From Planctomycetes bacterium UBA1146 (GTDB taxonomy: Bacteria; Planctomycetota; UBA8108), in contig CAUZHA010000010.1 in assembly GCA_963579555.1 (NCBI GenBank), positions 133-64,132 of the forward strand: a stretch of 64,000 nt of DNA. Direction: 5' to 3'. Below the pieces are notes generated by a model that saw only the letters and a program-made list of their open reading frames with translations, searched no databases and was not told the DNA's origin. The position numbers were made by a program, and so were the translations under genes. Shown here piece by piece: positions 9,593 to 39,300 of the stretch (within the stretch, counting starts at the first letter, position 1; each line of letters starts with the position of its first letter).

Positions 9593-10174
9593 TCAGCTCG
9601 AATGAATTCGGGGGCCGGAGGGCAGGGAGGCTATGAGCTGTCCCTCAAACCGGCGTAATTCTTCGAGGCGCTCGAGGGTTCGGCTCTCACCGGCGTGATC
9701 CACTCCGAGCTCGACGAAGAGCCTGTAATGGCCGACCTCGCTGGCGTAGAGGTCTTCGTAGAAGTTGCCCAGGGTCGAGCCGCGCAGCTCCTTCGCCAGC
9801 AGCTGGAAGCGCTCGGCGCTTCGCGCCTCGATGAGGCTGCAGATAAGCAGCTTATCGAGGAAGCTGGCCCGGCCGTCCTTGTGGATGAAGCGTCGCAGGC
9901 CGATGGCGTAGGGGTTGCCGCCGCGCGGCTGGGTGGCGGGCGGATAGTCCTCGAGCAGCTTCTCGACCTGGTTGAAGTGGTCCTCTTCTTCCGCCGCCAG
10001 CTCTTCCATCAGCTTGACGAGCGAGGGCTTCTCTTCACCGTGGCGGCGGGCGATCGCCATCGCCATGGCGGCGGCCTTCTGTTCACAGAAAAGGTGGTCA
10101 AGGAGCAGGGCGCCAGGCTCTTCGAGCGCGCGGCTGGCCCAACCCTCGGGGGTGTTGTAGCGCAGGCCGAGCAT
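9593..10174 (-). CDS. miaE: tRNA-(ms2io6A)-hydroxylase MiaE-like di-iron protein
   Basis: LLDHLFCEQKAA, EEEDHF, LIEARSAERF and SEVGHY carboxylate/His di-iron motifs. Confidence 0.88.
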   Translation of the reverse strand: MLGLRYNTPEGWASRALEEPGALLLDHLFCEQKAAAMAMAIARRHGEEKPSLVKLMEELAAEEEDHFNQVEKLLEDYPPATQPRGGNPYAIGLRRFIHKDGRASFLDKLLICSLIEARSAERFQLLAKELRGSTLGNFYEDLYASEVGHYRLFVELGVDHAGESRTLERLEELRRFEGQLIASLPSGPRIHSS

Positions 10175-10177
10175 GCC

Positions 10178-11995
<1,818 letters not shown>

Positions 11996-11999
11996 GGGG

Positions 12000-12299
12000 T
12001 TATTCCTCCGGCTCCCCGTTGCCGTCCGCGGATGCGGCCGTCGCAGTGATCTCCTGCTCTTCGAGCTCGCCGGCATATTCGTTGTCGAGACGGTTCAGCA
12101 GGATGGCGTAGATGAGGATCAGGAGGATGAAGACGATGATGCTGCCCTGCTGGGCAAACCAGAAACCCAGGGGGAAGCCGCCGAGGCTGAACTGGTTGAG
12201 CCAGTCAGCGAAGAGAACGCCGCAGCCAAGCCCTACGAAGGCCCAGATCGCCAGGAGGACGATCATGATCGTTACGTTCTTACGCCAGTAGCCCTGCAT
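12000..12299 (-). CDS. DUF4212 small membrane subunit of the solute:sodium symporter
   Basis: YWRKN...GFPLGFWFAQQGSIIVF signature; GGAG RBS upstream; lies directly upstream of the SSS gene. Confidence 0.92.
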   Translation of the reverse strand: MQGYWRKNVTIMIVLLAIWAFVGLGCGVLFADWLNQFSLGGFPLGFWFAQQGSIIVFILLILIYAILLNRLDNEYAGELEEQEITATAASADGNGEPEE

Positions 12300-18792: not shown

Positions 18793-18955
18793 CGCTGGTT
18801 TCCTCGAGGTTTTGAGTGCTCCTTTTTTAAGCGGGAGCGGGCGCGAGGGCAAGAGGGGGGCTTGGCGGTTGCAAATCGAACCTCATCGTCGGACACTATC
18901 TGCAGTGGCAAGGATTAAAGAACATTCGCATTCCCTGAACCGAAGGGGCTTCGGC

Positions 18956-21900
18956 ATGAAATTTACGGTATTCCCGGTTTTCCTGTTCCTCTTCCTCGGC
19001 GCGGCCGCCCCGCTTCAGTCCGCGGATTGGCCGACCTACCGCCATGACAACAGCCGCAGTGGCACGACGGCTGAAAAACTCGTCGCTGAAAAGCTCGAGC
19101 TCAATTGGGTTCACCGGGCGGCCCTGGCGCCGCGGCCGGCCTGGGCCGGACCGGCGAAGTGGGATGCCTACGCCGGAATTCGCGGACTGCGGTCGATGCG
19201 CAATTACGATCCAGCCTTCCACGTCATCGTCGTAGATGGCTCGGTTTACTACGGCTCTTCGGCGGATCATGGCGTGCATCGTCTCGATGCGAAGACCGGC
19301 CGGGAAAAATGGGTCTTTTTTACCGATGCCCCGGTTCGGATCGCGCCGACCTGGTATTCGAAGAAACTTTACTTCGGCTCTGATGATGGCTACGCCTACT
19401 GCATCCGGGAACGCGATGGTGAACTGGTCTGGAGGAAGAGGCCTGAACTTCCCGGGCGCCTGATTCTCAACAACGGCAACTTCATTCCGTTCTGGCCCTG
19501 TCGTACCGGGGTGCTGGTGGACAGGGGGCTGGCTTATTTCGGCAATTCCCTCCTGCCATGGAAGGATTCCTATATCAGCGCGGTCAACGCGAGTACCGGC
19601 AAGCCGTCTTCCAGGGGAGGCTTCCTGAAGAAGTACGGAGGCCTGACCCTCGAGGGAGCCCTGCTCGCATCCAGCAGTCGACTCATCGCCCCCCAGGGCC
19701 GGGTGGCGCCCCTGCTTTTTGGCCGGGCGGATGGAGCCAGGCTCGGTTCGCTGGAAGGTGGTGGTGGTTGCTTCGTTCTCCTTACCGATGATTCCAATGT
19801 CCTTCATGGACCGGGCAATAAGACGGGCTGGATCACCGGCAGCAACGAGAAGAGTCGCGGCAAGATCGCCACCTTCAAGAATGGCAACGAGATGATCATT
19901 TCCGGCGATACGGCCTATATGCTGAGCGATCACGCGCTGGCGGCGATGGACCGCAAAAACAAGAAGGGCAAGTGGAGAACCGCGGGCGAGTATTCGCTGA
20001 CCATGATCCTTGCCGGTGATACGGTTTTCGCCGGGGGAATAGACGAGGTGGCCGCTTTCCGTACAAGCGACGGCGAGCAGATCTGGAGGGGCGCGGTAGA
20101 AGGCGGTGTTTATGGCCTTGCGGTAGCCGATGGGGCTCTCTTTGTCAGTACGGACCAGGGCAGGATCGCCTGCTTCAGGGCGGGCAAGGGGAAGCCAGCC
20201 AGGGGGGAAACAGCCGGGAAGAAGGACGAGCTTGCGGTGCTCGACGTTCCCGGGTTCAAGAGTCCGGGGCTTGTCGGTCGTTGGCTGCTGCAGTCCGGCG
20301 CGGTCAAGGGACGCAAGGTATTCGACCTCGCCGGGAAGCAGCACGCCGCGGCGCAGGGGAATCCCCGGCTGGTGAAGTTAGGTGAACACCAGGGGATGAA
20401 TTTCGAAGGACAGATTTCCAGCCTGAGAATTGTCGATGATCACAAGGATGCGAACCTGCCCGTGAAGGCGATCTCGGCGGAGGCCTGGGTCCGGATAGAC
20501 CAGGCGGCTCCCTGGGGTTGTATCATCGGCGCCTTCCAGGACAACGGCAGCTACGAGAAGGGATGGATCCTGGGCTATGTAGGCTCGAAGTTTTCTCTCG
20601 CGATCCAGGGGACCGGCGGCGCGTCGGCGATGACCTACATGACAGCCGACCGGGCTTTCAGGGCCGGGCAGTGGTATCACGTCGTCGGCACCTACGACGG
20701 CGTCGAGATGAGGCTCTATGTCGATGGCAAGCTCGCGGCCGCCGGGAAAGCCCAGAGCGGCCCCATCGATTATCCACCGTCCGCGTTTTACGAGATGGCG
20801 GCCTACCATGACAAAGATGAGTATTTCAGGTTGAGAGGCGCGCTGAACGAGGTCCGGGTCTATAACCGCGCCCTCTCGGCCGCTGAATGCGCCAGGCACA
20901 GCCGATCGAAAAAACTCGAGGGCGGAGGCTCCGGCGGCATCGCGGTCCCCGCCGAACAGCTGCTCACCCTGAAGGCGGGCCCTTTCCTGCATTTTACCTC
21001 TCTGGACACCGCCGTGGTGAATTGGGAGACGGCCGAGGCATCGAGGACGGCTGTTCTTTTCGGGCCAAAGGGTGGGGAGCAGGAGAAGCTCGGGCGTTCC
21101 GGCGCGCGCAGGGAGCACGAGCTCGAGTTCACAGGGCTCGCCCGCAACAGGCTCTATACCTACAGGATCGTGGCGGGAATCGAGGGTAAGGAGCTCAGCA
21201 CGGCAGAGTACGAGTGCGATAATTTTTTTAATCTCACGCTGCCGTCGATGCGAGCCGAGCTGAATCCTTATTCCGGAGCGAAAGACTCGAGCGTGGCGGC
21301 CGACGCCGCCCAGCGAATTCTCGATGAGACAGGAATTGATCAGGGGATCTGCCTCGTGCTTGCCAGTGGAGACGGACGTCTCGCCTGGGAGCTCGCCGTG
21401 CGCAGCCGTCTGCAGGTGGTCGGGGTCGACACGGATGAGAAGGCTGTGGATAAGGCTCGGAGGCTGGCCTACAAGGCGGGCGTCTATGGTGTCAGGCTGA
21501 AGTATTACAAGGTCGACTCCCTCTCGAAGCTGCCTTTTACAGGACACTTTGCCAACCTGGTCGTCTCGGCAGGGATGATCGAGAAGGGGCGCTGCGAGGG
21601 CAGCGCGAGTGAGCTGTTCAGGATACTGCGGCCCGGTGGCGGCATCGCCTACCTGGGACAGCCGGCCGAGCTGAAGCCGACCCTGACAACGACCCGGCTG
21701 GCCTCCTGGTTGAAGCGGGGCGGAGTGGAGTTCAGGTCCATCGAACGCGATGGCTCCTGGGCGGTCGTTCGTCGCGGTCCCCTGGAGGGGGCGGGCTCCT
21801 GGTCGCATCAATACGGCCAGGCAGACAACTCGGCCTTCGGCGGCGAGCAGCTCGCGGGCGCGGCAGGCATCAATGATCTCGATGTCCAGTGGATCGGCCG

Positions 21901-23092
21901 CCCGGGCCCCAGGGCGCAGCCGGATCGCAACGGCAGGAAGCCCTCGCCTCTCTCGACCAATGGGCGTCTCTTTGTCCAGGGCCTGCACAGGATCATCTGC
22001 CTGGATTCCTACAATGGCTCGATTCTCTGGAGCTGGGAGATCCCGTCCATGATGCGCTTCAATATGCCGCGCGATTGCAGCAATTGGTGCGCTGATGGAG
22101 ACAACGTCTTCGTCGCGATGGGCGGGCGTTGCTGGCGCATTGACGCGAAGACCGGAGCTCTGAGCAAGAGCTACAGGGTCCGTCCGGGAAACATCAAGGA
22201 ATGGGAGTACGACTGGAGCTACCTCGCCCGGGAGGGCGACAAGGTCATCGGCAGCGGCGTCAAGAAGGGTACGGCCTTCACGAGCTTCTGGGGCGGGTCC
22301 GGGGCAGGCTGGTACGATGCCAAGAGCGGCCCGGTGACGCATAAGGTCTGCAGCGAGAATCTCTTCGCTCTCTATGAAAAGTCCGGGTTGCTGAAGTGGG
22401 AATATTCGAAGGGAGTCATCCTCAACCCGACGATCACAGTGAGCGGCGGCCGAGTCTATTTTGTCGAGAACCGCAACGCCGGGGTCAAGAAGGCGAGTGA
22501 TCGGCGGGTAGGCTCGTCTTCGCTCTGGACAGACCAGTACCTCGTCGCTCTCGACTCCGATTCCGGCAAGGTTGTATGGGAGAAACCTATCGACACGGCC
22601 AATGGGGATGTCGTCTTCTATCTCGCCAGCGGCGGCGGCAAGGTGGTGCTGGTCGCATCCGGGGGCAAGAAATACCATACCGATGTCTTTGATTCGAAAA
22701 GCGGCAAGGCACTCTGGAAGGACAGCTTCAGCTGGGGACAGGATCATCATGGCGGACACATGGCGCGCCCGGCGATCGTCAATGGCGAGGTCTACGTTCG
22801 GCCGCGCGCCTATGACCTGGCGACCGGTAAGGTGCTCAAAAAGAGCCTCCCTGGAGGAGGCTGTGGAACCTATGCCGCTACCACGGGAGCCTTTATCTTC
22901 CGCTCGGGAAACGTGACCATGTGGGACAGGTCAAATGGCAAGGTGACGAGTTGGAGCAGGCTGCGTCCGGATTGCTGGCTGTCTACGATCCCGGCCGGTG
23001 GGATGCTGCTTTCTCCCGAGGGTGGCGGGGGCTGCAGCTGCGGCTCCTGGCTGGAGACCTCGATCGGCTTTATTCCCGTGGCGCGAAAGTGA
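18956..23092 (+). CDS. Secreted multidomain protein: PQQ-type propeller + LamG/ConA + FN3-like + methyltransferase-like + PQQ-type propeller
   Basis: Signal peptide MKFTVF..; DWPTYRHDNSRSG; LamG motifs ISAEAWVR, WYHVVGTYDG and LNEVRVYNRALS; FN3-like VVNWET...REHEL; CLVLASGDG; C-terminal CG..CW..GCSC. Confidence 0.85.
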   Translation: MKFTVFPVFLFLFLGAAAPLQSADWPTYRHDNSRSGTTAEKLVAEKLELNWVHRAALAPRPAWAGPAKWDAYAGIRGLRSMRNYDPAFHVIVVDGSVYYGSSADHGVHRLDAKTGREKWVFFTDAPVRIAPTWYSKKLYFGSDDGYAYCIRERDGELVWRKRPELPGRLILNNGNFIPFWPCRTGVLVDRGLAYFGNSLLPWKDSYISAVNASTGKPSSRGGFLKKYGGLTLEGALLASSSRLIAPQGRVAPLLFGRADGARLGSLEGGGGCFVLLTDDSNVLHGPGNKTGWITGSNEKSRGKIATFKNGNEMIISGDTAYMLSDHALAAMDRKNKKGKWRTAGEYSLTMILAGDTVFAGGIDEVAAFRTSDGEQIWRGAVEGGVYGLAVADGALFVSTDQGRIACFRAGKGKPARGETAGKKDELAVLDVPGFKSPGLVGRWLLQSGAVKGRKVFDLAGKQHAAAQGNPRLVKLGEHQGMNFEGQISSLRIVDDHKDANLPVKAISAEAWVRIDQAAPWGCIIGAFQDNGSYEKGWILGYVGSKFSLAIQGTGGASAMTYMTADRAFRAGQWYHVVGTYDGVEMRLYVDGKLAAAGKAQSGPIDYPPSAFYEMAAYHDKDEYFRLRGALNEVRVYNRALSAAECARHSRSKKLEGGGSGGIAVPAEQLLTLKAGPFLHFTSLDTAVVNWETAEASRTAVLFGPKGGEQEKLGRSGARREHELEFTGLARNRLYTYRIVAGIEGKELSTAEYECDNFFNLTLPSMRAELNPYSGAKDSSVAADAAQRILDETGIDQGICLVLASGDGRLAWELAVRSRLQVVGVDTDEKAVDKARRLAYKAGVYGVRLKYYKVDSLSKLPFTGHFANLVVSAGMIEKGRCEGSASELFRILRPGGGIAYLGQPAELKPTLTTTRLASWLKRGGVEFRSIERDGSWAVVRRGPLEGAGSWSHQYGQADNSAFGGEQLAGAAGINDLDVQWIGRPGPRAQPDRNGRKPSPLSTNGRLFVQGLHRIICLDSYNGSILWSWEIPSMMRFNMPRDCSNWCADGDNVFVAMGGRCWRIDAKTGALSKSYRVRPGNIKEWEYDWSYLAREGDKVIGSGVKKGTAFTSFWGGSGAGWYDAKSGPVTHKVCSENLFALYEKSGLLKWEYSKGVILNPTITVSGGRVYFVENRNAGVKKASDRRVGSSSLWTDQYLVALDSDSGKVVWEKPIDTANGDVVFYLASGGGKVVLVASGGKKYHTDVFDSKSGKALWKDSFSWGQDHHGGHMARPAIVNGEVYVRPRAYDLATGKVLKKSLPGGGCGTYAATTGAFIFRSGNVTMWDRSNGKVTSWSRLRPDCWLSTIPAGGMLLSPEGGGGCSCGSWLETSIGFIPVARK

Positions 23093-23097
23093 GTCGC

Positions 23098-23346
23098 CTA
23101 GGTTCCGGGGGCCGCGCCGCCGCCCATCTTCCTGCGGTCGCTTTCTCTGATGTTCCTGTAGATGAACCCGATGACGAAGCTCGCCATGCTCAGGAAGAGT
23201 CCCAGCATGAAGAGGATGCTCCAGGTGAATCCCGACGCCGAACCGGAGTCGATACTCTTTCCTCACATGACGCATTGCGCCCGGGCGATAGCCGGGGCGA
23301 GGAAGAGAGCCAGCCAGGACAGGGAGATGAGATAAAGCCGTTTCAT
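23098..23346 (-). CDS. Small exported membrane protein with CxxU motif; candidate selenoprotein (in-frame UGA at 23263-23265)
   Basis: Translation MKRLYLISLSWLALFLAPAIARAQCVM(UGA)GKSIDSGSASGFTWSILFMLGLFLSMASFVIGFIYRNIRESDRRKMGGGAAPGT(TAG), 82 aa. The frame stays open and GC3-rich after the UGA and ends 5 nt from the convergent neighbour. Confidence 0.8.
23229..23253 (-). promoter_or_regulatory. Candidate bacterial SECIS element
   Basis: AUC-GAC-U-CC-[GGUUC]-GG-C-GUC-GG-GAU stem-loop; the loop begins with GG exactly 18 nt after the UGA. Confidence 0.7.
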
Positions 23347-23354
23347 AGGCTGAG

Positions 23355-23382
23355 AGTATAGCCCTCGGCGGCAGGCAGTTAA
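23355..23382 (-). promoter_or_regulatory. Leaderless-type promoter of the CxxU gene
   Basis: Minus strand TTAACT-N16-TATACT, then 8 nt to the ATG at 23346; no Shine-Dalgarno. Confidence 0.6.
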
Positions 23383-23410: not shown

Positions 23411-24670
23411 TTGTTCAGACCGCCGGCTTGCCGTAACATTTGGGGCTTGCCAGATATCACGCGACCTATCAAGAAGACCGGCCCCGGATCGATTTCTGTC
23501 CTGATTCCGCTGGTGCTCCTGCAATATGCCGCAGGGGGAGCTTTCTACCCGTTCCTCGGGCCCTATCTCGAGAACGCCAAGGGCTTCGAGGTCAGGGATC
23601 TCAGCCTGCTGGCTCTTGGGGCCGGCGTCGTGAATTGTGTGATGCCCTTTGCCTGGGGTGCCCTGGCCGACCGTGTCATAGCAGTCAATCGTCTCATCTG
23701 CCTGCTGCACCTGTCGGCGGCATTTTCCCTGCTGATCTTTTCACAGGGAGCGGGCCTGGTCATGCTGACGGGCCTCTTCGCCCTCTACACGGCCCAGCAG
23801 CAGCCGACCAATTCGCTCTCCAACGCGCTCTGCTATCACAACCTGGATGACCCCCCGAGGCAATTCGGTCCGCTCAGGCTCTGGGGCTCGGTCGGCTGGG
23901 CCTTGCCTTCGGTTCCCATCGCTTTCTGGCTCCTCGATGGAGGCGAGCGCTCGCTTCATTTCATCATCTACCTGACCTTCGGGCTCCATCTCGCCCTCGC
24001 CCTTCTCTATCCCTTTCTTCCTCACACCCCGCCGGCGGGCCGCAAGGAGGGAGCCGGGAGTTTTTTCACCGACCTGGCCGTTCTGTTCAGGGCGCCGGGC
24101 TTCGCGATGCTCCTGCTGGTCACCTTCCTGGTGCAGGCGGGCTTCGCGATCATGTTCTATCTCTCGCCGCTGGCACTCGGACGGTCGCTGGTTGATTCCG
24201 ATATTCGCCTGGGTTGGCTGGGTCCGATTCAGACCGCCGGGGTGATTCTCGAGATCCCTCTCTTCCTGCTGCTGCCGAGGCTTCTGGGGCGTCTTGGTTA
24301 CAGGAAGGTGCTTGGCCTGGGGATTGCAGCTTCGCTGGTGCGGCACCTGGTCTTTGCAACCTCGACCAGCCCGCTGGCGCTGGCGCTGGCGAGCCAGCTG
24401 ATCGCTCCCTGCGTGGTCTTCTTCCTCATCGGAGTGAGCCTGGCCATCAACTCGATCGCCGGGCGGGAGATTCGCGCTACCTCCCAGACGCTGCTTGCCC
24501 TGGCGGGCTCCGGTCTCGGGTCGGTCCTGGGGCTGGCCTCCAGCAGCCTGCTTGCTTCAGGAGACTCGGTGAAGAGCTCCTTCTTCTTCGCGTGCGGCTG
24601 CAGCCTGCTGTCGTTGCTGTTGCTGCTGGGGGTCCGTTTTCCCGCGCCGATGGCCAGGCAGAAATCCTGA
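23411..24670 (+). CDS. MFS transporter (nucleoside:H+ symporter / MFS_1-like)
   Basis: About 12 hydrophobic segments; WGALADR and FGPLRLWGSVGW motifs; start uncertain (TTG at 23411 or 23447). Confidence 0.88.
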   Translation: MFRPPACRNIWGLPDITRPIKKTGPGSISVLIPLVLLQYAAGGAFYPFLGPYLENAKGFEVRDLSLLALGAGVVNCVMPFAWGALADRVIAVNRLICLLHLSAAFSLLIFSQGAGLVMLTGLFALYTAQQQPTNSLSNALCYHNLDDPPRQFGPLRLWGSVGWALPSVPIAFWLLDGGERSLHFIIYLTFGLHLALALLYPFLPHTPPAGRKEGAGSFFTDLAVLFRAPGFAMLLLVTFLVQAGFAIMFYLSPLALGRSLVDSDIRLGWLGPIQTAGVILEIPLFLLLPRLLGRLGYRKVLGLGIAASLVRHLVFATSTSPLALALASQLIAPCVVFFLIGVSLAINSIAGREIRATSQTLLALAGSGLGSVLGLASSSLLASGDSVKSSFFFACGCSLLSLLLLLGVRFPAPMARQKS

Positions 24671-30801: not shown

Positions 30802-33800
30802 ATGAGCCGCTGTCTCACCTTGCAATCAGTTCGGGTTTTTACAGTCCTCGTGGTTGGGCTTTGCGCTTGCGCCAATCTCCAGGCTGTAACGATTTCGGAG
30901 ATCATGTACTCGCCCCGGGGCGAGGTTCAGAAGCGTTTCGAGTTCATCGAGCTTTACAACGAGAACCCCGACCCGCTCGATCTCTCCGGCTATGCGATCT
31001 GCGACGGGATCAGCTTCGTTTTTCCCGAGGGAACCTGGATGGAGGGAAACTCCTTCCTGGTCGTCTGCGCTGACCAGGAGGCGATCCGGGCGCTCTACGC
31101 TATCGACAATACCGTCGGCAACTGGGCCTGGGATGGAGAGAGCGGCAACTCGCTGTCCAACGGCGGCGAGGACATCGAGATCTGCAACCCGGGCGGCCGG
31201 ACTGTCCTTCGGGTGAAATACAACGACCGCGGCAAGTGGCCGGTGGGAGCGGATGGGCTGGGACACTCCCTCGAGCTCTTCGCCCCCTACACCGACCAGG
31301 ATGATCCCGACAGCTGGATACAGTCAAGCGATCCCGGCGGCTCGCCCGGCGGCCCGAACCCCTGCTGGGAGGGGGTTGAGGTATCGGAGGGCCCCTCGGG
31401 CCCCGGCCCCATCTACGGTAACCCCGTTGGCCTGTTCCACGGGCAGCAGGATATTGGCGAGCCCTGTACGGCCGGGAGCTTCACCACGCGTACGGTCGAC
31501 GGCATCGAGAGCTACGAGATCACCGCCTCCGGCGATGGCATCGGATCCGGCAGCGACCAGCTCCATTTCGGCTATCTCCAGGTCAGGGGGAACTTTGACC
31601 TGAGGGGGCGGCTCGTTTCGCGCAACTGGCTCGAGGGCGAGGGCATGGACCGGGCGGGGATCATGGTTCGCCGCGACCTGACGGATCGTTCGGCTTTTGT
31701 CTTCGTGCACGACTCCCCGGAGCCCGACGGGGCGAGGATCCTGCGCAGGACGACGCACGACAGCGACAGCAGCGAGGAGCCCGCGTCGCTGGACACCCAC
31801 CCGGAATGGTATCGCCTGCGGCGCAGCGGCGACTCCATCACCTGCTACTATTCGACCAACGGGAGGTCGTGGCGCGCCATCGGCTCGTTCAATAGCGGAC
31901 GCACGACCTGGAACAATGGAGAGGCGGCCTATGTGGGCTTCGCCCTGACATCGAGCGGCGGCTGCGGGACGTCCTCCGTCACCTGGGAAGACGTTCAGCT
32001 CACCGGCGATGTGATCTCCAGCCCCGGAGACGGGACGCTTCCCGGCGAGGGTGAGAAGGTGAAGGTACCCGAAGATCCCGGCGGTTTCTGCCGGGACCCG
32101 CTCGGGGTCCGGATCAACGAGGGCTTCTTTCGCGGCACGGACGAGCGCTGGATTGAGCTCTACAACTCGACCTCCGGAGATGTTGACCTTGCGGGCTATT
32201 ACCTGACAGATGACCGTAACGACTCTCAGAAGGTGGAGCTGGCCGCCGACACGGTCGTTCCGGCCGGCGGCTATCTGGTGGTGACCGAGGCGGCCCTGGG
32301 GCTGGATCTCTCCATCAGCGAGGAGAGCAACGATGTCTTCCTGGCGCTCATCGAGCCGCGGGGCGGACGGGTGGTCGACGCGGTCAATTTCCGTCCGAGC
32401 CACGACGGCAAGAGCGAGTCCCGGGTACCGGACGGGGGCGAGATGCGCGATGCGGCGGAGCCCACGCCGGGGGTTGAGAACAGGCTGGATGTGGAAACGG
32501 GCATCGTGATCAACGAGATCATGTATCATCCGATCTCCAATGACAGGAACCGCGAGTTCGTAGAGCTCTACAACCGCTCGGATGTGCCGGTGGATCTGAC
32601 CGGCTGGGAGTTCACCAGCGGCTTCGAGTTCAGCTTTCCCGACAATACGGTCTTGGCGCCGGGCGGCTACCTGGTGGTGGGGCGGGATCCCGCCCTGCTC
32701 AGGTCGGTCTACGGCCTGGAAGAGGGCTCGGTGCTTGGGCCGGTTGACGAGGATGCCCTCGATGATTTCGGCAGCCTGAGCGACCGCGGCGAGCGGATTA
32801 CCCTGCAGGACGGGATGGGCCGTACGACCGACACGGTGCGCTATTTCGACGGCGGCGAGTGGCCGCGCTGGGCGGACGGCCATGGGTCCTCGATCGAGCT
32901 TATCGATCCGCTGCAGGATAACCGCTTCGGCATGGCCTGGGATGCGAGCGATGACTCGGACAAGTCCGAGGTTACCAGCTTCTCCTACACTACACGCCAT
33001 AGGGGAGGTGAATCGGAGCTCCACCTGCTGCTGTTGAGCCGGGGAATTACCGTTGTGGACAACGTCTCGGTGCTCCAGGGAGGCGCGGCCAGCGAGGATA
33101 TTCCCATCATCGACACCAACGAGATCTGGGCCTATTTCAAGGGTACCCGGGCGCCTCCCGCGAACTGGAAGGCTCTCGACTTTGATGATTCTGACTGGCT
33201 CAGCGGGCGGACCGGCATCGGCTACGGCGATGGCGATGACGAGACCGTTCTCAATGACATGCGGAACAACTATCTGACGATCTTCTGCAGGAAAATGTTT
33301 ACCGTTGACGACCCCGAAGAGCTCGAGGAGCTGGTCTTCCAGGTCACGGTTGACGATGGGTTCTACGCCTATCTCAACGGTACCCAGGTCGCCTCCTACA
33401 ACGTCAACTCACCTGCCCATGATGCGCTGGCCTCCAGCGCTGGCGAGCCCAGCCTCCAGCAGCAATCGATTACGAATTTCCGCGAGCTGCTCAACGAGGG
33501 AGAGAATGTCCTCGCAGTGCAGGTTCATAACGGAGGCTCGCTGAACAGCTCCGACCTCAGCTTCATTCCGCGCCTGGTCAACCGGGTGCCTTCGGACGTC
33601 GTCCGGGGAGATGAGCGCCTGGTGAACCCGACCTTCAATTCAAACACCAGTGGCTGGACCATCCAGGGAACCCATGTGCGTAGCGGGCGCAGCACCACTC
33701 ATTCGATCGACGGGGCCGGCTCCCTGAAGATCATCGCCTCCGGACGCGGCGACAATAAGGTTAACCGGATTGAGAGCGCCAACAGCGGTGTGCGGTCGTT

Positions 33801-36315
33801 CAGTACGCAGGAGGACCAGCTTGTTGTCTTCGATGCGAAATGGCATGTCGGATCCCAGACGCTCAACACCCACGGCTACAAGCACGAGATGGCGAAGACC
33901 CACGAGCTCGCCGTGCCTGAAAACCTCGGCAGTCCCGGGGGCCTCAACAGCGTCACCAGGAGATTGCAGGCCGGCGGCGCCGTCAACCTGGGCCCGGTGA
34001 TGACCGACCTCGTGCAGACTCCCCAGGTTCCGATCGCTGGTGAGCAGGTCCGGATCCAGGTCCGCGCGGCCGACTCCGACGGGGTCGAGAGTCTTCGCCT
34101 GCGCTGGTCGGTGAACAACCCGACGACCAATCCCTCGACGGTGGAGATGACGGAGGTGGGAGGGGGCGCCTGGGAGGCCGTGGTTCCGGCGCAGAGCGTC
34201 AACTCGAGGGTCATCTTCTTCATCGAGGCGACGGATGCCTCGGGCAACCCCGGCCGCTTCCCGGTTGATATCTCCGAGCGCTCCCATCCCATGGTGCTGA
34301 ATCCACCGACGACAGGCATTCACGACCGGCGCTATTTCATCTACTCGCAGGAGTCGACAAGGAACCCGTCCACCCGCTTCCACGATTACCGCTTCCACAC
34401 GAGTGCCTACAACGAATCTCGTCTTGGCAGCCGCAGGAGGCTCTCCAACGACCTGGTCGACGGCTCCTTCAGCTTCGGCGGCACAACGATCTACCACGAG
34501 GCGGCGATGCGCTTCTCGGGGAGTCCCTGGGCCCGCGGCAGCTGGAACGGCAGCTTCCGGGTGGTCTCGCCCCGGGACAAGCCGATCAACGGGTGGATCA
34601 GGAAGTTCAACCTGGAGGACCATCACAACAACCCGAGCAACGCCCGGGAGCGGATCGCCCATTACCTGCTGCGCCTGAACCAGGGAACGATCGCGGTGCC
34701 CTATTCGGAGGTGCAGTCGATGGCCCGCTGGCAGGTCAACACCAGGATCACGACGACCCGCGAGCATGTCTGGGTGCCGGACACCCAGTATGTCGGGCTG
34801 TGGTTCGACGAGGCCGATGGCGACTTCATCGAGATGGATGACCGCTTCGTGATCAATGACAGTGGGGACCGGACGGGAAGCAGCGATGGCTACGTCCGCT
34901 ATCCGCCGCCGAGTGAACGCAGGCAGGGGGATGGATCCAATAAGGAGAACTACCGCTGGTTCTTCGGCCTGAGGGCCAAGAACGGCGCGGATGATTTCAC
35001 CAACTTCATGGAGTTCTGCCGCCTGATGGATCCCTCCGTTACCAATAACGCGGCCTTTGAGAGCCAGGTCTGGGACAAGGTCAACGTCGAGGAGATGCTG
35101 CGCATCTGGGCGATCCGCTTCAACCAGGCTGACTGGGACACCTGGGGGACAGACCGAGGCAAGAACTGCTATTTCTACCAGGATGGTTCCGAGGGAAGAT
35201 GGCACCTGCTGGCCTGGGATATGGAGCTGACCTTCGAGACCGGTCGTCTTGACCAGTTCCTGATTCCCAGTTCGCCGAATTCGGCCTTCCGTCCCAGCGG
35301 CGGCAAGTTCGCCGAGGTGGACAGGATGTTCCAGATCCTGCCGATCAAGAAGCTCTACTACGGCATCCTTGATACGATGGTCAACGGCGACAACGCCTTC
35401 TATTCCTCCACCCGGCTGAATGAATACATGACCAAGCTCGACCGGCTGGGGATGAACGCTACGGATATCGGCAAGCCGAACGGCTACATCGACCAGCGCC
35501 GCAACCGCCTTCGCACAAGGATCGCCTCTGTCTCGAATACGGCCTTCCGGATCTCGACGAGGAACGGAGCGGACTTCTCCACCGCGGAGCGGCAGGTCTC
35601 TCTCGCCGGCACCGGGCCCGCGCGGCTGCGCCAGGTGATCTTCAATGGCGAGAGCTATCAGCTCGAGCACACGAGCATGACGGCCTGGCGGGTAGACGAA
35701 ATCCCCCTTGGGCCGGGCGAGAACCTCCTCGAGCTGCTCGCCATCGATCTCAACGGAAATGTATTTGGCGCCGACAGCATCACCGTTACCAGCACGGCGG
35801 CCTTCGAGCCGCCCACTATCAACGCCCTGGGTCCAGCCGAGGGCGTTGCCGGCGATACGATCGAGATCAGGGGTGCGAACTTCCTGCCCGGGATCACGGT
35901 GTTCTTCGGCGATACGCTCGCGCCTTCGGCGCAGAGAATCTCTCCGACGAAGATCATTGTCGAGGTGCCTGAGGGCGCAGGCGTGGTCGAGGTGACGGTG
36001 CGAAACTCCAACGGGCAGGAGGCCTCCGGGGCGACCTTCACCTACATAGCGGAGGGGGCGGTGTTCGTACGCGGGGACGCCAACAACGATGGGGCGGTCG
36101 ACATCAGCGACGCGGTTTCGGTGGTCGGCCATCTCTTCCTCGGGCTGGCCCTGGGCTGCCGGGATGCCGCCGATGCCGACGATGACGAGCAGCTGGTGAT
36201 TACCGACGCGGTCTACCTGCTCGATTTCCTCTTCAGGTCAGGCGCTCCGCCGCCGCCGCCCTACCCGGCGGCGGGAACCGACCCCGACGGCGACATCCTG
36301 GGCTGCGATTTTTAG
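30802..36315 (+). CDS. Large secreted lamin-tail-domain / CotH-kinase / IPT / dockerin-like protein, paralog 1
   Basis: ISEIMY and INEIMYHP..EFVELYN lamin-tail repeats; CotH-like DWDTW..KN..WDME; IPT/TIG (IRGANF); C-terminal RGDANNDGAVDISDAV dockerin-like motif. Confidence 0.88.
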   Translation: MSRCLTLQSVRVFTVLVVGLCACANLQAVTISEIMYSPRGEVQKRFEFIELYNENPDPLDLSGYAICDGISFVFPEGTWMEGNSFLVVCADQEAIRALYAIDNTVGNWAWDGESGNSLSNGGEDIEICNPGGRTVLRVKYNDRGKWPVGADGLGHSLELFAPYTDQDDPDSWIQSSDPGGSPGGPNPCWEGVEVSEGPSGPGPIYGNPVGLFHGQQDIGEPCTAGSFTTRTVDGIESYEITASGDGIGSGSDQLHFGYLQVRGNFDLRGRLVSRNWLEGEGMDRAGIMVRRDLTDRSAFVFVHDSPEPDGARILRRTTHDSDSSEEPASLDTHPEWYRLRRSGDSITCYYSTNGRSWRAIGSFNSGRTTWNNGEAAYVGFALTSSGGCGTSSVTWEDVQLTGDVISSPGDGTLPGEGEKVKVPEDPGGFCRDPLGVRINEGFFRGTDERWIELYNSTSGDVDLAGYYLTDDRNDSQKVELAADTVVPAGGYLVVTEAALGLDLSISEESNDVFLALIEPRGGRVVDAVNFRPSHDGKSESRVPDGGEMRDAAEPTPGVENRLDVETGIVINEIMYHPISNDRNREFVELYNRSDVPVDLTGWEFTSGFEFSFPDNTVLAPGGYLVVGRDPALLRSVYGLEEGSVLGPVDEDALDDFGSLSDRGERITLQDGMGRTTDTVRYFDGGEWPRWADGHGSSIELIDPLQDNRFGMAWDASDDSDKSEVTSFSYTTRHRGGESELHLLLLSRGITVVDNVSVLQGGAASEDIPIIDTNEIWAYFKGTRAPPANWKALDFDDSDWLSGRTGIGYGDGDDETVLNDMRNNYLTIFCRKMFTVDDPEELEELVFQVTVDDGFYAYLNGTQVASYNVNSPAHDALASSAGEPSLQQQSITNFRELLNEGENVLAVQVHNGGSLNSSDLSFIPRLVNRVPSDVVRGDERLVNPTFNSNTSGWTIQGTHVRSGRSTTHSIDGAGSLKIIASGRGDNKVNRIESANSGVRSFSTQEDQLVVFDAKWHVGSQTLNTHGYKHEMAKTHELAVPENLGSPGGLNSVTRRLQAGGAVNLGPVMTDLVQTPQVPIAGEQVRIQVRAADSDGVESLRLRWSVNNPTTNPSTVEMTEVGGGAWEAVVPAQSVNSRVIFFIEATDASGNPGRFPVDISERSHPMVLNPPTTGIHDRRYFIYSQESTRNPSTRFHDYRFHTSAYNESRLGSRRRLSNDLVDGSFSFGGTTIYHEAAMRFSGSPWARGSWNGSFRVVSPRDKPINGWIRKFNLEDHHNNPSNARERIAHYLLRLNQGTIAVPYSEVQSMARWQVNTRITTTREHVWVPDTQYVGLWFDEADGDFIEMDDRFVINDSGDRTGSSDGYVRYPPPSERRQGDGSNKENYRWFFGLRAKNGADDFTNFMEFCRLMDPSVTNNAAFESQVWDKVNVEEMLRIWAIRFNQADWDTWGTDRGKNCYFYQDGSEGRWHLLAWDMELTFETGRLDQFLIPSSPNSAFRPSGGKFAEVDRMFQILPIKKLYYGILDTMVNGDNAFYSSTRLNEYMTKLDRLGMNATDIGKPNGYIDQRRNRLRTRIASVSNTAFRISTRNGADFSTAERQVSLAGTGPARLRQVIFNGESYQLEHTSMTAWRVDEIPLGPGENLLELLAIDLNGNVFGADSITVTSTAAFEPPTINALGPAEGVAGDTIEIRGANFLPGITVFFGDTLAPSAQRISPTKIIVEVPEGAGVVEVTVRNSNGQEASGATFTYIAEGAVFVRGDANNDGAVDISDAVSVVGHLFLGLALGCRDAADADDDEQLVITDAVYLLDFLFRSGAPPPPPYPAAGTDPDGDILGCDF

Positions 36316-36390: not shown

Positions 36391-39300
36391 ATGATCCATC
36401 ATACTTACGCATCGAGCCTGTGCTTGGTGTCAGCGCCGGCAAGGTCGGCTATCGCTTACATTCTTCTTTTCGCATTGCTTGTTCTTTTTCCTGCTTCGGG
36501 GAGGCTCCATGCTCTGACCATCTCCGAGGTCATGTACCACTCCGGCGCCCTCGAGGACCAGGGTGATGAGTTCATCGAGCTCTACAATGAGAACATCGAT
36601 CCGGTCGATCTGAGCGGCTACTCGATCTGCAATGGAATCAATTTCGTCTTTCCCCGCGGCACCTACCTCGATGGTCACTCCTACCTGGTGATCTGCGCAA
36701 ACGAGGCCGCGATTCGTGGCCGCTACGGCATCACCAATACCATTGGCGACTGGATCGGCGCACTGGATAATTCCGGCGAGAGAATCGAGATCTGCAATAC
36801 CGGCGGCCGCGTCGTTACGGAGCTGCGTTACAACGACCGGGGAAAGTGGCCGGTGGGAGCTGATGGTACGGGACATTCCCTTACACTCAAGGCACCCTTC
36901 CTGGATGTAGACGATGCTGACAGCTGGCGCCTGAGCAGAGCCCTGGGAGGTACGCCGGGCAGGCCGAATGGTCCCTCTTTTGAGGCGGGGGCGGTCTTTG
37001 AGCCGCCGGCCAATGGCATGGACTCGAACGGTTTCATTCTCACCTGGCTGGTTCTCGGACCCTATACCGGAGCCGCCTGCAATATTGGCGACGCGGTCAT
37101 TCGCGCGGACTGGTTGCGTGAAGCCGGAGTCGGCACCCGGCGGCAGACGGATATGGACTGGAGGGCTGGAGATGTGGTCAATACCAGCTTTGCCAGCGCT
37201 CGCTCCACTGGCCTTCATCAGAATTCACCGACCAATACTCCTACGGTCGAGGAGTACCTCTCGTTTGGAGACACGATCGATTTCAACGAGTCGGTCTGGC
37301 CTCCGGACCCTGAAAACGTGATGGGCTACGCCTTCACCTACGTAGACAACGTCACGGGTTCGGACCTGGGAGTTACCATCGGGTGCGCGAGCGATGACGC
37401 CATCGCCGTCCTGATCAACGGCAGCCACGTACATGTGAATGATGCCTGCCGGGGTGTCGGCAATTCCGGGCAGGTCCAGGACACCGCCTCGGCGACCCTG
37501 CAGCCGGGGAAAAACCTGGTAGCCGTAAAGGTTTTCGAGAACGGCGGCGGCTGGAGCTTCAGGTTGCGTTTCCAGGAACGAGCAGGCGGCGCCCCGATCA
37601 CCGACATCTCGCAGCTCCAGATCACCACGAATGTCGATGAGGGCCTCGACTTTGACGGCAACGGCGACCCGATCGAGGACCCCGGCGGCGGAGATCCCGG
37701 GGACCCCGGACCGGACATTCTCCAGGAGGCTGGCAGCTCGCCCGTGCTCCTTAACGAGGCGCTCATGCTGACCAATGGAGAGCGCTGGATCGAGCTCTAC
37801 AACCGCTCGGGCTCGACTGTCAATCTCTCGGGGCATTATCTGACCGATGATCCCGGCAACCTCACCAAGCGGCAGTTCCCCGGAGGGACAAGTATCGTCT
37901 CCGGCGGTTACCTGACCTTCACCGACACCGAACTGGGACTCGATTTCTCGATTACCGAAGAGGAGGACAGGGTTTTTGTTGCCCTGGTGGATGACACCGG
38001 CGAGAAGGTGCTCGATGCCTACAACTTCGAGCCCGAATTTGTCGACATGAGCGAGGCCCGGATTCCTGATGGTGATGACGAATTGGAGGGCGCCTCTGTG
38101 CCGACGAGGGGCGCGGCCAACAGGATGGATGTGAACCAGGCTATCGTGATCAACGAGATCATGTACCATCCCCTTGGCGACAACGAGGACAAGGAGTACC
38201 TTGAGCTCTACAATCGGGGCGACCGGGTTGTAGACATCAGCGGCTGGGAGCTCAATCGCGGGCTCAGCTTCACCTTTCCCGCCGGCACCCGGATGTCTCC
38301 CGATACCTATCTCGTGATCGGGCGCAACCCGCGCTTGATTGAGGAGCTCCATGGCCTTCCGGCCAACTCGGTTCTCGGTCCGGAACAGGATCCGGATGCG
38401 GTTGATGACTTCAGGACCCTGCGCGACAGCGGCGAGAGGCAGACTCTCAAGGACGATCTTGGTCGCACAGTCGACACGGTACGCTATTACGATGGGGGCG
38501 ACTGGCCGCGCTGGTCGGATGGGCTGGGCTCTTCGATGGAGCTGATCGATCCCTACCAGGACAACCGCTTCGGCGCGGCGTGGGATGCGAGCGATGATTC
38601 CGACAAGGCGGAGGTTGAGCATTTCAGCTATGTGGGCCGCCACGGGGGCGGGGAGTCTGAGCTCCATGTGTTGCTCATGACGCGCGGGATGAGCCTGGTG
38701 GACAACCTCTCTATCGTCGGCGGTGCGGTTCGTAATAACGACACCGAGCTGATTGGAGATGATGAAACCTGGCGCTATTTCAAGGGGACCCAGGCGCCTC
38801 CGGCTAACTGGCAGACCTCAGGTTTCGACGATTCAGGCTGGGAGAGCGGACGGACCGGGATCGGCTACGGCGATGGCGACGACAACACGGTGCTTGATGA
38901 CATGAGGGAGAGCTACCTGACGGTCTTCTGTCGCAAGACCTTCAACGTGACCAATATCGAAGATATCAACGAGCTCATCCTCTCGATCACCGTCGATGAT
39001 GGTTTCTACGCCTATATCAACGGCGTCCAGGTCGCCTCCTACAACGTCAACAGCCCCGACTGGGACGCGCCGGCCTCGAGTGCCGGCGAGCCTACGCTGG
39101 TGGAGCGAACCCTGGAGAACCCTGGCGCGGTCCTGCGGCTCGGCGAGAACGTCCTCGCGGTGCAGGTTCACAACGGCAACCTCACCAGCTCAGATCTGAG
39201 CTTCATTCCCCGTCTCGTTGACCGGACCACGACCTTTGTCGATGGAGAGGAGCAGCTTGGTAACGGCGACTTCAACTCGAACACCCGCGGCTGGATGATA

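What the first reader, a model, noticed from the sequence alone, without database searches (positions are those of the whole stretch)
23229..23265. SECIS-like hairpin in fdhF register right after the UGA
Seen: after the UGA the mRNA reads GGA AAG AGU AUC GAC UCC GGU UCG GCG UCG GGA U. It folds as AUC/GAU, GAC/GUC and CC/GG around a GGUUC loop that starts 18 nt after the UGA. Established: the E. coli fdhF SECIS (UGA CAC GGC CCA UCG GUU GCA GGU CUG CA) also places a GGU loop 18 nt after the UGA, and the bacterial SECIS model needs a G at the start of the apical loop about 16-37 nt downstream. The encoded peptide here (IDSGSASG) is a low-constraint linker, as expected when RNA structure is under selection.
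Basis: partly seen in the sequence, partly recalled or inferred. Interest (0 to 1): 0.8.

Follow-up and report, generated by a model that had tools for sequence, protein, structure and literature searches.

The report
Probable SECIS in tiny new selenoprotein gene
The hairpin is real and sits just after a conserved in-frame UGA in an unannotated 82-codon membrane-protein gene of uncultured marine Planctomycetota, so it is most likely the signal that makes the ribosome insert selenocysteine, although its exact fold is not settled.

Summary
The sequence and hairpin are exactly as described, on the minus strand. UGA is window 23265-23263 and the hairpin is 23253-23229.

On its own the hairpin is no better than chance. 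Its folding z-score against shuffles is -0.13. About 28% of all TGA triplets in this window are followed by a hairpin that meets the published bacterial SECIS (bSECIS) model.

The comparative evidence is much stronger. The UGA lies in an 82-codon ORF (23346-23098): signal peptide, Q-C-x-M-U motif, Ser/Gly linker, one transmembrane helix, basic tail. Twenty-three related copies from marine Planctomycetota MAGs and metagenomes all keep the ATG, the frame and the TGA. None has Cys.

Synonymous variation nearly disappears in the 12 codons holding the hairpin: 0.04 against 0.25-0.29 elsewhere, the lowest of 56 contiguous stretches. Rare codons such as GGT, which supplies the loop GGU, are invariant. 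The loop G23-U24 is in the same register as in E. coli fdhF.

No decisive covariation exists. Two other, mutually exclusive helices in the same block fit the variants equally well. The family has no Pfam or NCBIfam match and no Cys homolog was found. Selenocysteine machinery could not be checked in the source genome.

Verdict: a probable bacterial SECIS in a new, selenocysteine-only micro-selenoprotein family.

The parts
23098..23346 (-). Unannotated 82-codon ORF with one in-frame UGA (stop TAG included): MKRLYLISLSWLALFLAPAIARAQCVMUGKSIDSGSASGFTWSILFMLGLFLSMASFVIGFIYRNIRESDRRKMGGGAAPGT
   Evidence: Translation. Best of six frames by codon log-odds on both sides of the UGA: +3.6 bits upstream, +27 bits downstream; GC3 0.78 and 0.85. 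Conserved with ATG, frame and TGA in 23 related loci. Third-position excess downstream of the UGA: pi by codon position 0.08/0.11/0.21.
23355..23382 (-). Promoter-like site: -35 TTAACT, 16-nt spacer, -10 TATACT. The -10 ends 8 nt before the ATG, so the mRNA would be leaderless or nearly so.
   Evidence: One search found 1 site where shuffles give 0.2. TATACT is conserved in L001-L006.
23278..23346 (-). Predicted signal peptide, residues 1-23: basic N-terminus, hydrophobic core, A-x-A before Q24.
   Evidence: Read from the sequence. AxA or VxA followed by Q is kept in all copies. No signal-peptide predictor was run.
23263..23274 (-). C25-V-M-U28 motif. UGA is 23265..23263.
   Evidence: C25, M27 and TGA are invariant in 17 distinct sequences, while codon 26 varies (GTC/CCC/GCC).
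23229..23253 (-). Candidate SECIS hairpin 'a', nt 13-37 after the U of UGA.
   Evidence: -8.9 kcal/mol. It meets the bSECIS consensus (PMC13188914). 97.8-100% of alignment cells are paired; changes are A-U to G-U, C-G to U-G, and one C-G to U-A.
23240..23244 (-). Apical loop G22 G23 U24 U25 C26, which fits the pattern N1-G-[G|U]-N-N2.
   Evidence: GGU is invariant in all copies although GGT is the rarest Gly codon at 11%. Same register as fdhF G23 U24.
23218..23253 (-). Nucleotide-level conserved block, nt 13-48 (codons +4 to +15). It also contains the alternative helices b (18-23/42-47) and c (28-29/47-48 plus 31-35/41-45).
   Evidence: Third-position diversity is 0.04 against 0.29 outside. 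This is the lowest of 56 contiguous stretches, permutation p about 1e-4 to 1e-3. It is 0.00 in the seven copies fetched independently of this block. Helices b and c.
23158..23229 (-). Predicted transmembrane helix, residues F40-Y63. It is followed by the basic tail RNIRESDRRK, which places the tail in the cytoplasm.
   Evidence: Read from the sequence. Conserved in all copies. No topology predictor was run.

Best explanation
Window 23346..23098 (minus strand) is a real but unannotated gene for a very small selenoprotein.

The protein has four parts, read from the sequence: a cleavable signal peptide, a mature N-terminus Q-C-x-M-U exposed outside the cytoplasm, a Ser/Gly linker, and one membrane-anchoring helix with a basic cytoplasmic tail.

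The UGA at 23265..23263 is decoded as selenocysteine. The conserved RNA block just downstream (nt 13-48, window 23253..23218) is the bacterial SECIS. When the ribosome reaches the UGA, the hairpin at nt 14-34 presents G23 and U24 in its apical loop. The Sec-specific elongation factor SelB, carrying Sec-tRNA(Sec), binds this loop and delivers the tRNA to the A site in competition with release factor 2. The geometry is the same as in E. coli fdhF.

Shown here: the sequence and fold, the conserved frame and UGA, the suppression of synonymous change, and agreement with the published consensus.

Inferred only: SelB binding, actual selenocysteine insertion, which of three competing helices is the functional one, and the protein's function. 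The C-x-M-U chemistry suggests a membrane-tethered thiol/selenol redox or soft-metal-binding peptide.
For: Sequence and ORF.

Coding evidence:
- Codon-usage log-odds are best in this frame on both sides of the UGA.
- A promoter-like site ends 8 nt before the ATG.
- Seven copies found through the neighbouring MFS gene, 13 through a degenerate peptide scan and 4 through a truncated fragment all keep ATG, a 27-codon spacing and TGA. None has TGC or TGT.
- Third-position excess downstream of the UGA shows that translation continues in frame.
- UGA is an ordinary stop in this genome: the neighbouring 1426-aa gene ends in TGA at 23090-23092.

RNA-level constraint:
- Synonymous diversity is 0.04 in codons +4 to +15 against 0.25-0.29 elsewhere, the lowest of 56 stretches, p about 1e-3 to 1e-4.
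- It is 0.00 in the independently fetched set.
- Non-preferred codons GGT, GGA, TCG and GCG are invariant.

Agreement with the bSECIS model:
- The window's hairpin meets loop 3-9 nt, stem of at least 4 bp, G in the first two loop positions, spacing 16-37 nt, and MFE of -7.5 kcal/mol or lower (model from PMC13188914).
- G23 and U24 are in the fdhF register.

Variants:
- All stem variants keep pairing. Several do so through G-U pairs, which work only in the sense-strand RNA.
- L022 restores pair 15-33 as U-A.

Background: other Planctomycetes carry selA/selB/selD and selenoproteins (PMC4807772).
Against: - The fold is no more stable than shuffled sequence: z = -0.13 and -0.54.
- 27.8% of TGA triplets in the window pass the same consensus.
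- There is no Rfam match.
- No significant covariation: one double-sided change in one sequence, and shuffles reach it in 131 of 500 trials.
- In the divergent subclade (L015, L019, L020-L023) hairpin 'a' weakens to between -5.5 and -7.1 kcal/mol. A competing helix at 17-24/41-48 then dominates the ensemble, with probability 0.86-1.0 when nt 1-12 are blocked and less in unconstrained folds.
- No tRNA-Sec, selA, selB or selD in the 64-kb window. The source genome could not be searched.
- No Cys homolog exists to form the usual Sec/Cys pair.
Confidence: 0.72

Rival explanations
1. The gene is a selenoprotein and the conserved block is its SECIS, but the functional fold is not the reader's hairpin. 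It would be one of two alternatives. Helix b is 18-23/42-47, extended to 17-24/41-48 in the divergent subclade. Hairpin c is 28-29/47-48 plus 31-35/41-45, with loop AUUCA or GAUUCAA 31-32 nt after the UGA.
For: - The conserved block runs to nt 48, beyond hairpin a.
- Hairpin c scores -8.7 kcal/mol, almost equal to a, and dominates when nt 1-12 are blocked in a 50-nt context.
- Hairpin c is kept in 98% of cells, with changes G-U to A-U and G-C to G-U.
- In the subclade, A17G and C41A both add a pair to helix b. Helix b then has probability 0.86-1.0 when nt 1-12 are blocked (pairs).
Against: - Helix b encloses 16-18 nt, outside the 3-9 nt loop of the consensus.
- Hairpin c in the main clade has no G in its first two loop positions, and its closing pair is broken in the subclade.
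- The non-preferred invariant codons (GGT, TCG, GCG, TCG, GGA) all lie in nt 22-36, inside hairpin a. Codons in nt 37-48 are the preferred ones, so their constancy is less telling.
- Only hairpin a reproduces the fdhF G23/U24 register.
Confidence: 0.17
2. The UGA is not decoded as selenocysteine. Either it is a true stop, with the downstream conservation serving another purpose such as a DNA operator for the divergent MFS gene or another RNA element. Or it is read through by a near-cognate tRNA, with the hairpin merely stimulating read-through.
For: - Sec machinery was not shown for this genome.
- The upstream coding score is weak, +3.6 bits over 27 codons.
- The block is a partial inverted repeat about 160-190 bp from the MFS start.
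- No Cys homolog was found.
Against: - Frame, ATG and 27-codon spacing are kept in 24 copies with no indel.
- There is a clear coding signature downstream in the UGA's frame.
- No in-frame start codon lies between the UGA and M47.
- The UGA occupies the position of the second redox residue of a C-x-x-U motif.
- Pairing is maintained by G-U pairs that are mismatches in DNA or on the antisense strand.
- In L020-L023 the upstream neighbour is not the MFS gene, yet the block is kept.
Confidence: 0.08
3. The hairpin is a chance fold. The block is conserved only because the peptide DSGSASGFTWS is needed by the protein and codon bias fixes the third positions.
For: - The fold is no better than shuffles.
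- 28% of TGA triplets pass the consensus.
- The peptide is invariant in most copies.
- TTC, ACC and AGC are preferred codons.
Against: - Seven four-fold or six-fold degenerate codons are frozen on non-preferred choices in 17 distinct sequences. Comparable codons elsewhere in the same ORF have third-position diversity of 0.5-0.7.
- The stretch is the least variable of 56.
- A Ser/Gly/Ala run is an unlikely target of such strict protein-level selection.
Confidence: 0.03

Closest known systems
E. coli fdhF SECIS (formate dehydrogenase H mRNA)
   Same: It lies directly 3' of the Sec UGA inside the coding region. It has a small hairpin whose apical loop carries G23 and U24, counted from the U of UGA: loop GGUC at nt 22-25 in fdhF and GGUUC at nt 22-26 here. 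The helix starts 10-11 nt after the UGA.
   Different: There is no sequence similarity outside GGU. fdhF has a bulged U17 (from my own knowledge; the fold shows an unpaired nt 18 in the UU run, which is equivalent). This element has a U19/C29 mismatch instead. fdhF's 41 nt fold to -14.2 kcal/mol with a lower helix, whereas this hairpin is -8.9 and its lower extension is not conserved. The host protein is unrelated.
Bacterial SECIS consensus model (bSECISearch; Zhang and Gladyshev, as summarised in PMC13188914 Fig. 2A)
   Same: The window's hairpin meets all four stated constraints.
   Different: The model is permissive: 27.8% of TGA triplets in the window pass my implementation. The original program was not available, so no bSECISearch score can be given. 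In the divergent subclade the same hairpin falls above the -7.5 kcal/mol limit.
Small C-x-x-U selenoproteins of bacteria, such as the SelW-like, CC/Se-motif family (NF041239) and AhpD-related 'hypothetical protein 1' families listed in PMC13188914 Table 1
   Same: It has a C-x-x-U motif with Sec as the second redox residue, is short, and has a SECIS inside the ORF.
   Different: It matches no NCBIfam or Pfam model at any useful score. The motif sits at residues 2-5 of the predicted mature protein, on a membrane anchor, with no folded domain around it. No Cys-containing homolog was found, whereas nearly all known families have them (PMC13188914).

Membership tests
Bacterial SECIS element (consensus model, PMC13188914 Fig. 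2A) | [quoted passage not shown] | tested here: met
   The hairpin starts 10-11 nt after the UGA of an ORF that is coding on both sides.
Bacterial SECIS element (consensus model, PMC13188914 Fig. 2A) | Apical loop of 3-9 nt on an upper stem of 4-16 bp | tested here: met
   The loop is GUU or GGUUC. The stem has 8 pairs with one 1x1 mismatch.
Bacterial SECIS element (consensus model, PMC13188914 Fig. 2A) | G in one of the first two loop positions, usually N1-G-[G|U]-N-N2 with N1 and N2 paired | tested here: met
   G22 G23 U24 U25 C26. G22, G23, U24 and C26 are invariant in all copies; U25 is G in the subclade.
Bacterial SECIS element (consensus model, PMC13188914 Fig. 2A) | 16-37 nt between the UGA and the apical loop | tested here: met
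   18-19 nt.
Bacterial SECIS element (consensus model, PMC13188914 Fig. 2A) | Minimum free energy of -7.5 kcal/mol or lower | tested here: met
   -8.9 kcal/mol in the window and main clade. In the divergent subclade the same hairpin is -5.5 to -7.1 kcal/mol, so the criterion is not met there.
Bacterial SECIS element (functional definition) | Structure supported by compensatory base changes among orthologs | tested here: inconclusive
   97.8-100% of cells are paired, but there are only one-sided changes plus a single double-sided change in one sequence. The result is not distinguishable from shuffles, and two rival helices fit as well.
Bacterial SECIS element (functional definition) | Nucleotide-level constraint beyond what the protein requires | tested here: met
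   Synonymous diversity is 0.04 against 0.25-0.29, the lowest of 56 stretches. Rare codons are frozen.
Bacterial SECIS element (functional definition) | Binds SelB and directs Sec insertion at the UGA | not testable with these tools
   Needs a SelB binding assay, 75Se labelling or a reporter assay.
Bacterial SECIS element (functional definition) | The host genome has the Sec-decoding trait (selA, selB, selC, selD) | tested here: inconclusive
   None is in the 64-kb window. Other Planctomycetes have the trait (PMC4807772).
Rfam SECIS families | Match to a curated covariance model | tested here: not met
   There is no match at the site even at E up to 10. The only SECIS_3 hit is elsewhere (22758-22816, plus strand, 16 bits against a gathering score of 63) and is chance.
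Selenoprotein gene (Sec/Cys-pair criterion of PMC1088965) | The in-frame TGA aligns with Cys in homologs | tested here: not met
   No Cys homolog was found. The word-index search found nothing. An exhaustive HMMER search of 1.84 billion representatives found only a 38-aa truncated fragment of the same family.
Selenoprotein gene (conserved-TGA criterion of PMC1088965) | [quoted passage not shown] | tested here: met
   19 distinct sequences from 24 copies, all with Q-C-x-M-TGA.

The most novel reading that the evidence does not exclude
This would be a previously unrecognised, selenocysteine-only family of micro-selenoproteins restricted to a clade of uncultured marine Planctomycetota. The mature product of about 59 residues would be little more than a Q-C-x-M-U peptide tethered to the outer face of the cytoplasmic membrane. 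It has no Cys-containing relatives. It would therefore be invisible both to gene callers, which stop at the UGA, and to the Sec/Cys-pair methods that found most known families. The mutually exclusive helices a and b in its SECIS block could reflect an SECIS that is changing fold between subclades.
Probability: 0.65. Interest if true: 0.6.

Novelty: new member of a known kind. Interest (0 to 1): 0.5.

Why it matters
If confirmed, it adds a selenoprotein family with three unusual features. It is extremely small. Its redox or metal-binding motif sits at the very N-terminus of a membrane-tethered extracytoplasmic peptide. It has no Cys homologs, which goes against the rule that nearly all selenoproteins have them (PMC13188914).

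It also shows that selenocysteine is used in a little-known marine planctomycete lineage. And it illustrates how such genes escape annotation: in 1.84 billion representative proteins the family appears only as a 38-residue fragment.

For SECIS biology it offers a compact element, with G23 and U24 in the E. coli register, that can be tested by mutation.

Tried and rejected
- **Rfam:** at gathering and permissive thresholds there was nothing at the site.
- **Thermodynamic significance:** none.
- **Pfam and NCBIfam** on the read-through protein with Sec replaced by Cys: only noise.
- **Protein homolog searches:** the word-index search gave nothing. The 54-aa downstream part gave one truncated fragment.
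- **Cys orthologs:** none were found, so the test of whether the hairpin is lost in Cys forms is impossible.
- **Other read-through candidates in the window:** five same-frame ORF pairs across a TGA, none with a redox motif. One is simply two adjacent genes, the SSF transporter and MiaE. So there is no second SECIS to compare.
- **Sec machinery in the window:** none.
- **Lower extension of the hairpin** (nt 9-12/36-39, total -12.8 kcal/mol): rejected as part of the conserved element, because positions 9 and 12 vary and break the pairs.
- **RNAalifold consensus:** it pairs the UGA itself with nt 53-58 and splits the block into two small hairpins, with a covariation term of 0. It was not adopted.
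- **Literature search** for a bacterial signal-peptide, transmembrane, C-x-x-U selenoprotein: nothing relevant.
- **Not run:** a second profile search of the 5.8-billion-protein index, judged low-yield.

Full report
**1. The observation**

The finding lies on the minus strand. Below, nt 1 is the U of the UGA, so nt n is window coordinate 23266-n.

RNAfold prefers a close variant, 14-18/30-34 plus 20-22/26-28 with loop GUU, at -8.9 kcal/mol.

The comparison with E. coli was checked rather than assumed. The recalled fdhF sequence occurs in fdhF of 5419 of 5426 complete E. coli genomes. It folds with loop GGUC at nt 22-25. G23 and U24 are therefore in the same register in both RNAs.

**2. Is the hairpin more than chance?**

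Taken alone, it is not.
- The 37-nt stretch folds no better than dinucleotide shuffles (z = -0.13; 82 of 200 shuffles fold as well). The 66-nt context gives z = -0.54.
- I took the published consensus for bacterial SECIS elements from PMC13188914, Fig. 2A legend. It requires a loop of 3-9 nt, a stem of 4-16 bp, a G in the first two loop positions, 16-37 nt of spacing, and an MFE of -7.5 kcal/mol or lower.
- I implemented this model. The window's hairpin passes every criterion. So do 530 of the 1904 TGA triplets in the window (27.8%), and 19% reach -8.9 kcal/mol.
- Rfam has nothing at the site.

**3. What the UGA sits in**

The UGA is codon 28 of an 82-codon ORF at 23346..23098. Its product is MKRLYLISLSWLALFLAPAIARA|QCVMU|GKSIDSGSASG|FTWSILFMLGLFLSMASFVIGFIY|RNIRESDRRKMGGGAAPGT.

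Read from the sequence, the parts are:
- a signal peptide with an A-x-A cleavage motif;
- a C-x-M-U motif at residues 2-5 of the mature chain;
- a Ser/Gly linker;
- one transmembrane helix;
- a basic tail that would stay in the cytoplasm.

Codon-usage log-odds, trained on 15 long genes of the window, are the best of six frames on both sides of the UGA: +3.6 bits upstream and +27 bits downstream, with GC3 of 0.78 and 0.85. A promoter-like site (TTAACT, 16 nt, TATACT) ends 8 nt before the ATG. UGA is an ordinary stop in this genome, since the convergent 1426-aa gene ends in TGA five bases away.

**4. Relatives**

Relatives came from three routes.
- A genome scan with the neighbouring MFS transporter gene, which is independent of the small ORF. 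It brought six marine Planctomycetota MAG loci, all with the small ORF in the same place.
- A metagenome scan with degenerate peptide patterns, which added 13 loci.
- The only hit of an exhaustive HMMER search of 1.84 billion representative proteins. It was a 38-aa fragment starting at the internal Met, which is what a gene caller leaves when it stops at the UGA. Its four contigs carry the full ORF.

All 24 copies, 19 of them distinct, keep the ATG, exactly 27 codons to the TGA, the TGA itself and Q-C-x-M before it. None has TGC or TGT.

Downstream of the conserved block, variation is concentrated at third positions (0.08/0.11/0.21 by codon position). Translation therefore continues in the UGA's frame.

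No Pfam or NCBIfam family matches, including the many recent selenoprotein models. No Cys-containing homolog was found.

**5. RNA-level constraint**

In codons +4 to +15 (nt 13-48) third-position diversity is 0.04, against 0.29 elsewhere. Synonymous codon diversity is 0.04 against 0.25. This stretch is the least variable of 56 contiguous stretches of equal size (permutation p about 1e-4 and 1e-3; Mann-Whitney p = 0.002).

In the seven copies retrieved without reference to this stretch, third-position diversity is 0.00, against 0.20-0.23 in the flanks.

The frozen codons are not the preferred ones. GGT is 11% of Gly codons and supplies the loop GGU. GGA is 22%, TCG 24% and GCG 29%. Comparable Leu, Pro and Ala codons in the signal peptide show diversities of 0.5-0.7.

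This is the strongest evidence that the RNA itself is under selection just after the UGA, where a bacterial SECIS must lie.

**6. Which fold?**

This part stays open. The block is so conserved that there is little variation to exploit.
100% of 136 cells pair. Three pairs vary on one side only: A13/G13-U37, C15/U15-G35 and A17/G17-U31.
- **RNAfold register:** 97.8% of cells pair. Pair 15-33 goes from C-G, through C.A in the divergent subclade, to U-A in L022. This is one double-sided change in one sequence, and shuffles reach it in 131 of 500 trials.

Several of these variants are G-U pairs, which exist only in the sense-strand RNA. That argues against a DNA palindrome.

Two other helices in the same block exclude hairpin a and fit as well.
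- **Hairpin c** (28-29/47-48 plus 31-35/41-45): -8.7 kcal/mol, 98% of cells paired.
- **Helix b** (18-23/42-47): in the subclade L015/L019/L020-L023, two substitutions (A17G and C41A) lengthen it to 8 pairs. It then dominates the predicted ensemble when nt 1-12 are blocked, while hairpin a weakens to between -5.5 and -7.1 kcal/mol.

I favour hairpin a for three reasons. It alone fits the consensus loop pattern. It alone reproduces the fdhF G23/U24 register. The frozen non-preferred codons all lie inside it, at nt 22-36.

**7. Mechanism**

The best-supported reading is a standard bacterial recoding event. SelB carrying Sec-tRNA(Sec) binds the apical loop of the hairpin as the ribosome arrives at the UGA, and inserts selenocysteine as residue 28.

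The product would be a membrane-tethered, extracytoplasmic C-x-M-U peptide. Cys, Met and Sec are all soft ligands, so a thiol/selenol redox role or a metal-handling role is plausible. This is an inference from the sequence only.

The gene lies tail-to-tail with a giant PQQ-propeller/LamG/methyltransferase protein in the window and also in L020, the one divergent-subclade locus whose neighbour I scanned. L021-L023 carry a convergent gene at the same spacing, but it was not scanned. The upstream neighbour differs in that subclade.

**8. What is missing**

No tRNA-Sec, selA, selB or selD lies in the window. The rest of the genome was out of reach. Other Planctomycetes are known to have the trait (PMC4807772). 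The original bSECISearch program was not available. SelB binding and selenium incorporation are untested.

**9. Verdict**

The SECIS interpretation is supported by comparative evidence rather than by the fold itself.

The element is a new member of a known kind, a bacterial SECIS. It sits in what appears to be a new, Sec-only micro-selenoprotein family.

Noticed in passing
window 23355-23382 (minus strand): A promoter-like -35/-10 pair. Its -10 (TATACT, conserved in the MAG loci) ends only 8 nt before the ATG of the small ORF. This suggests a leaderless or nearly leaderless mRNA with no room for a Shine-Dalgarno site.
   Followed up: partly
window 18812-23092 (+) and 1730-4717 (-); L020 820-3780 (-): Two paralogous giant proteins combine BamB/PQQ-like beta-propellers with a methyltransferase domain, and the larger also has a LamG domain. 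The small selenoprotein gene lies tail-to-tail with the larger one in the window (5 bp between stops) and also in L020 of the divergent subclade, where the upstream neighbour has changed. L021-L023 have a convergent gene at the same spacing that was not scanned.
   Followed up: partly
L015, L019, L020-L023, nt 17-48 after the UGA: In the divergent subclade, two substitutions (A17G, C41A) each add a base pair to the ends of an alternative helix (17-24/41-48). That helix then dominates the predicted ensemble, while the fdhF-like hairpin weakens. It could be an SECIS changing fold, or coincidence.
   Followed up: partly
window 24319-24406 (+): A weak tRNA-Sec-like match (Rfam RF01852, 19.4 bits against a gathering score of 47, E = 1.5) inside the MFS transporter gene. 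ARAGORN finds no tRNA there. It is almost certainly chance.
   Followed up: yes
window 9593-12076 (-): A sodium:solute symporter gene ends in TGA at 10180-10178 and is followed in the same frame by a MiaE (tRNA hydroxylase) ORF. This looks like a read-through candidate but is simply two adjacent genes.
   Followed up: yes
window 30802-36315 (+) and 36391-41961 (+): Two consecutive very large ORFs (1837 and 1856 aa) with strong coding scores. They were not characterised.
   Followed up: no
L021 2-1501 (+), L020 111-467 (+): In the divergent subclade the gene upstream of the small ORF is on the same strand and has no Pfam match (499 aa in L021). A 118-aa ORF without a Pfam match occupies that place in L020.
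   Followed up: partly
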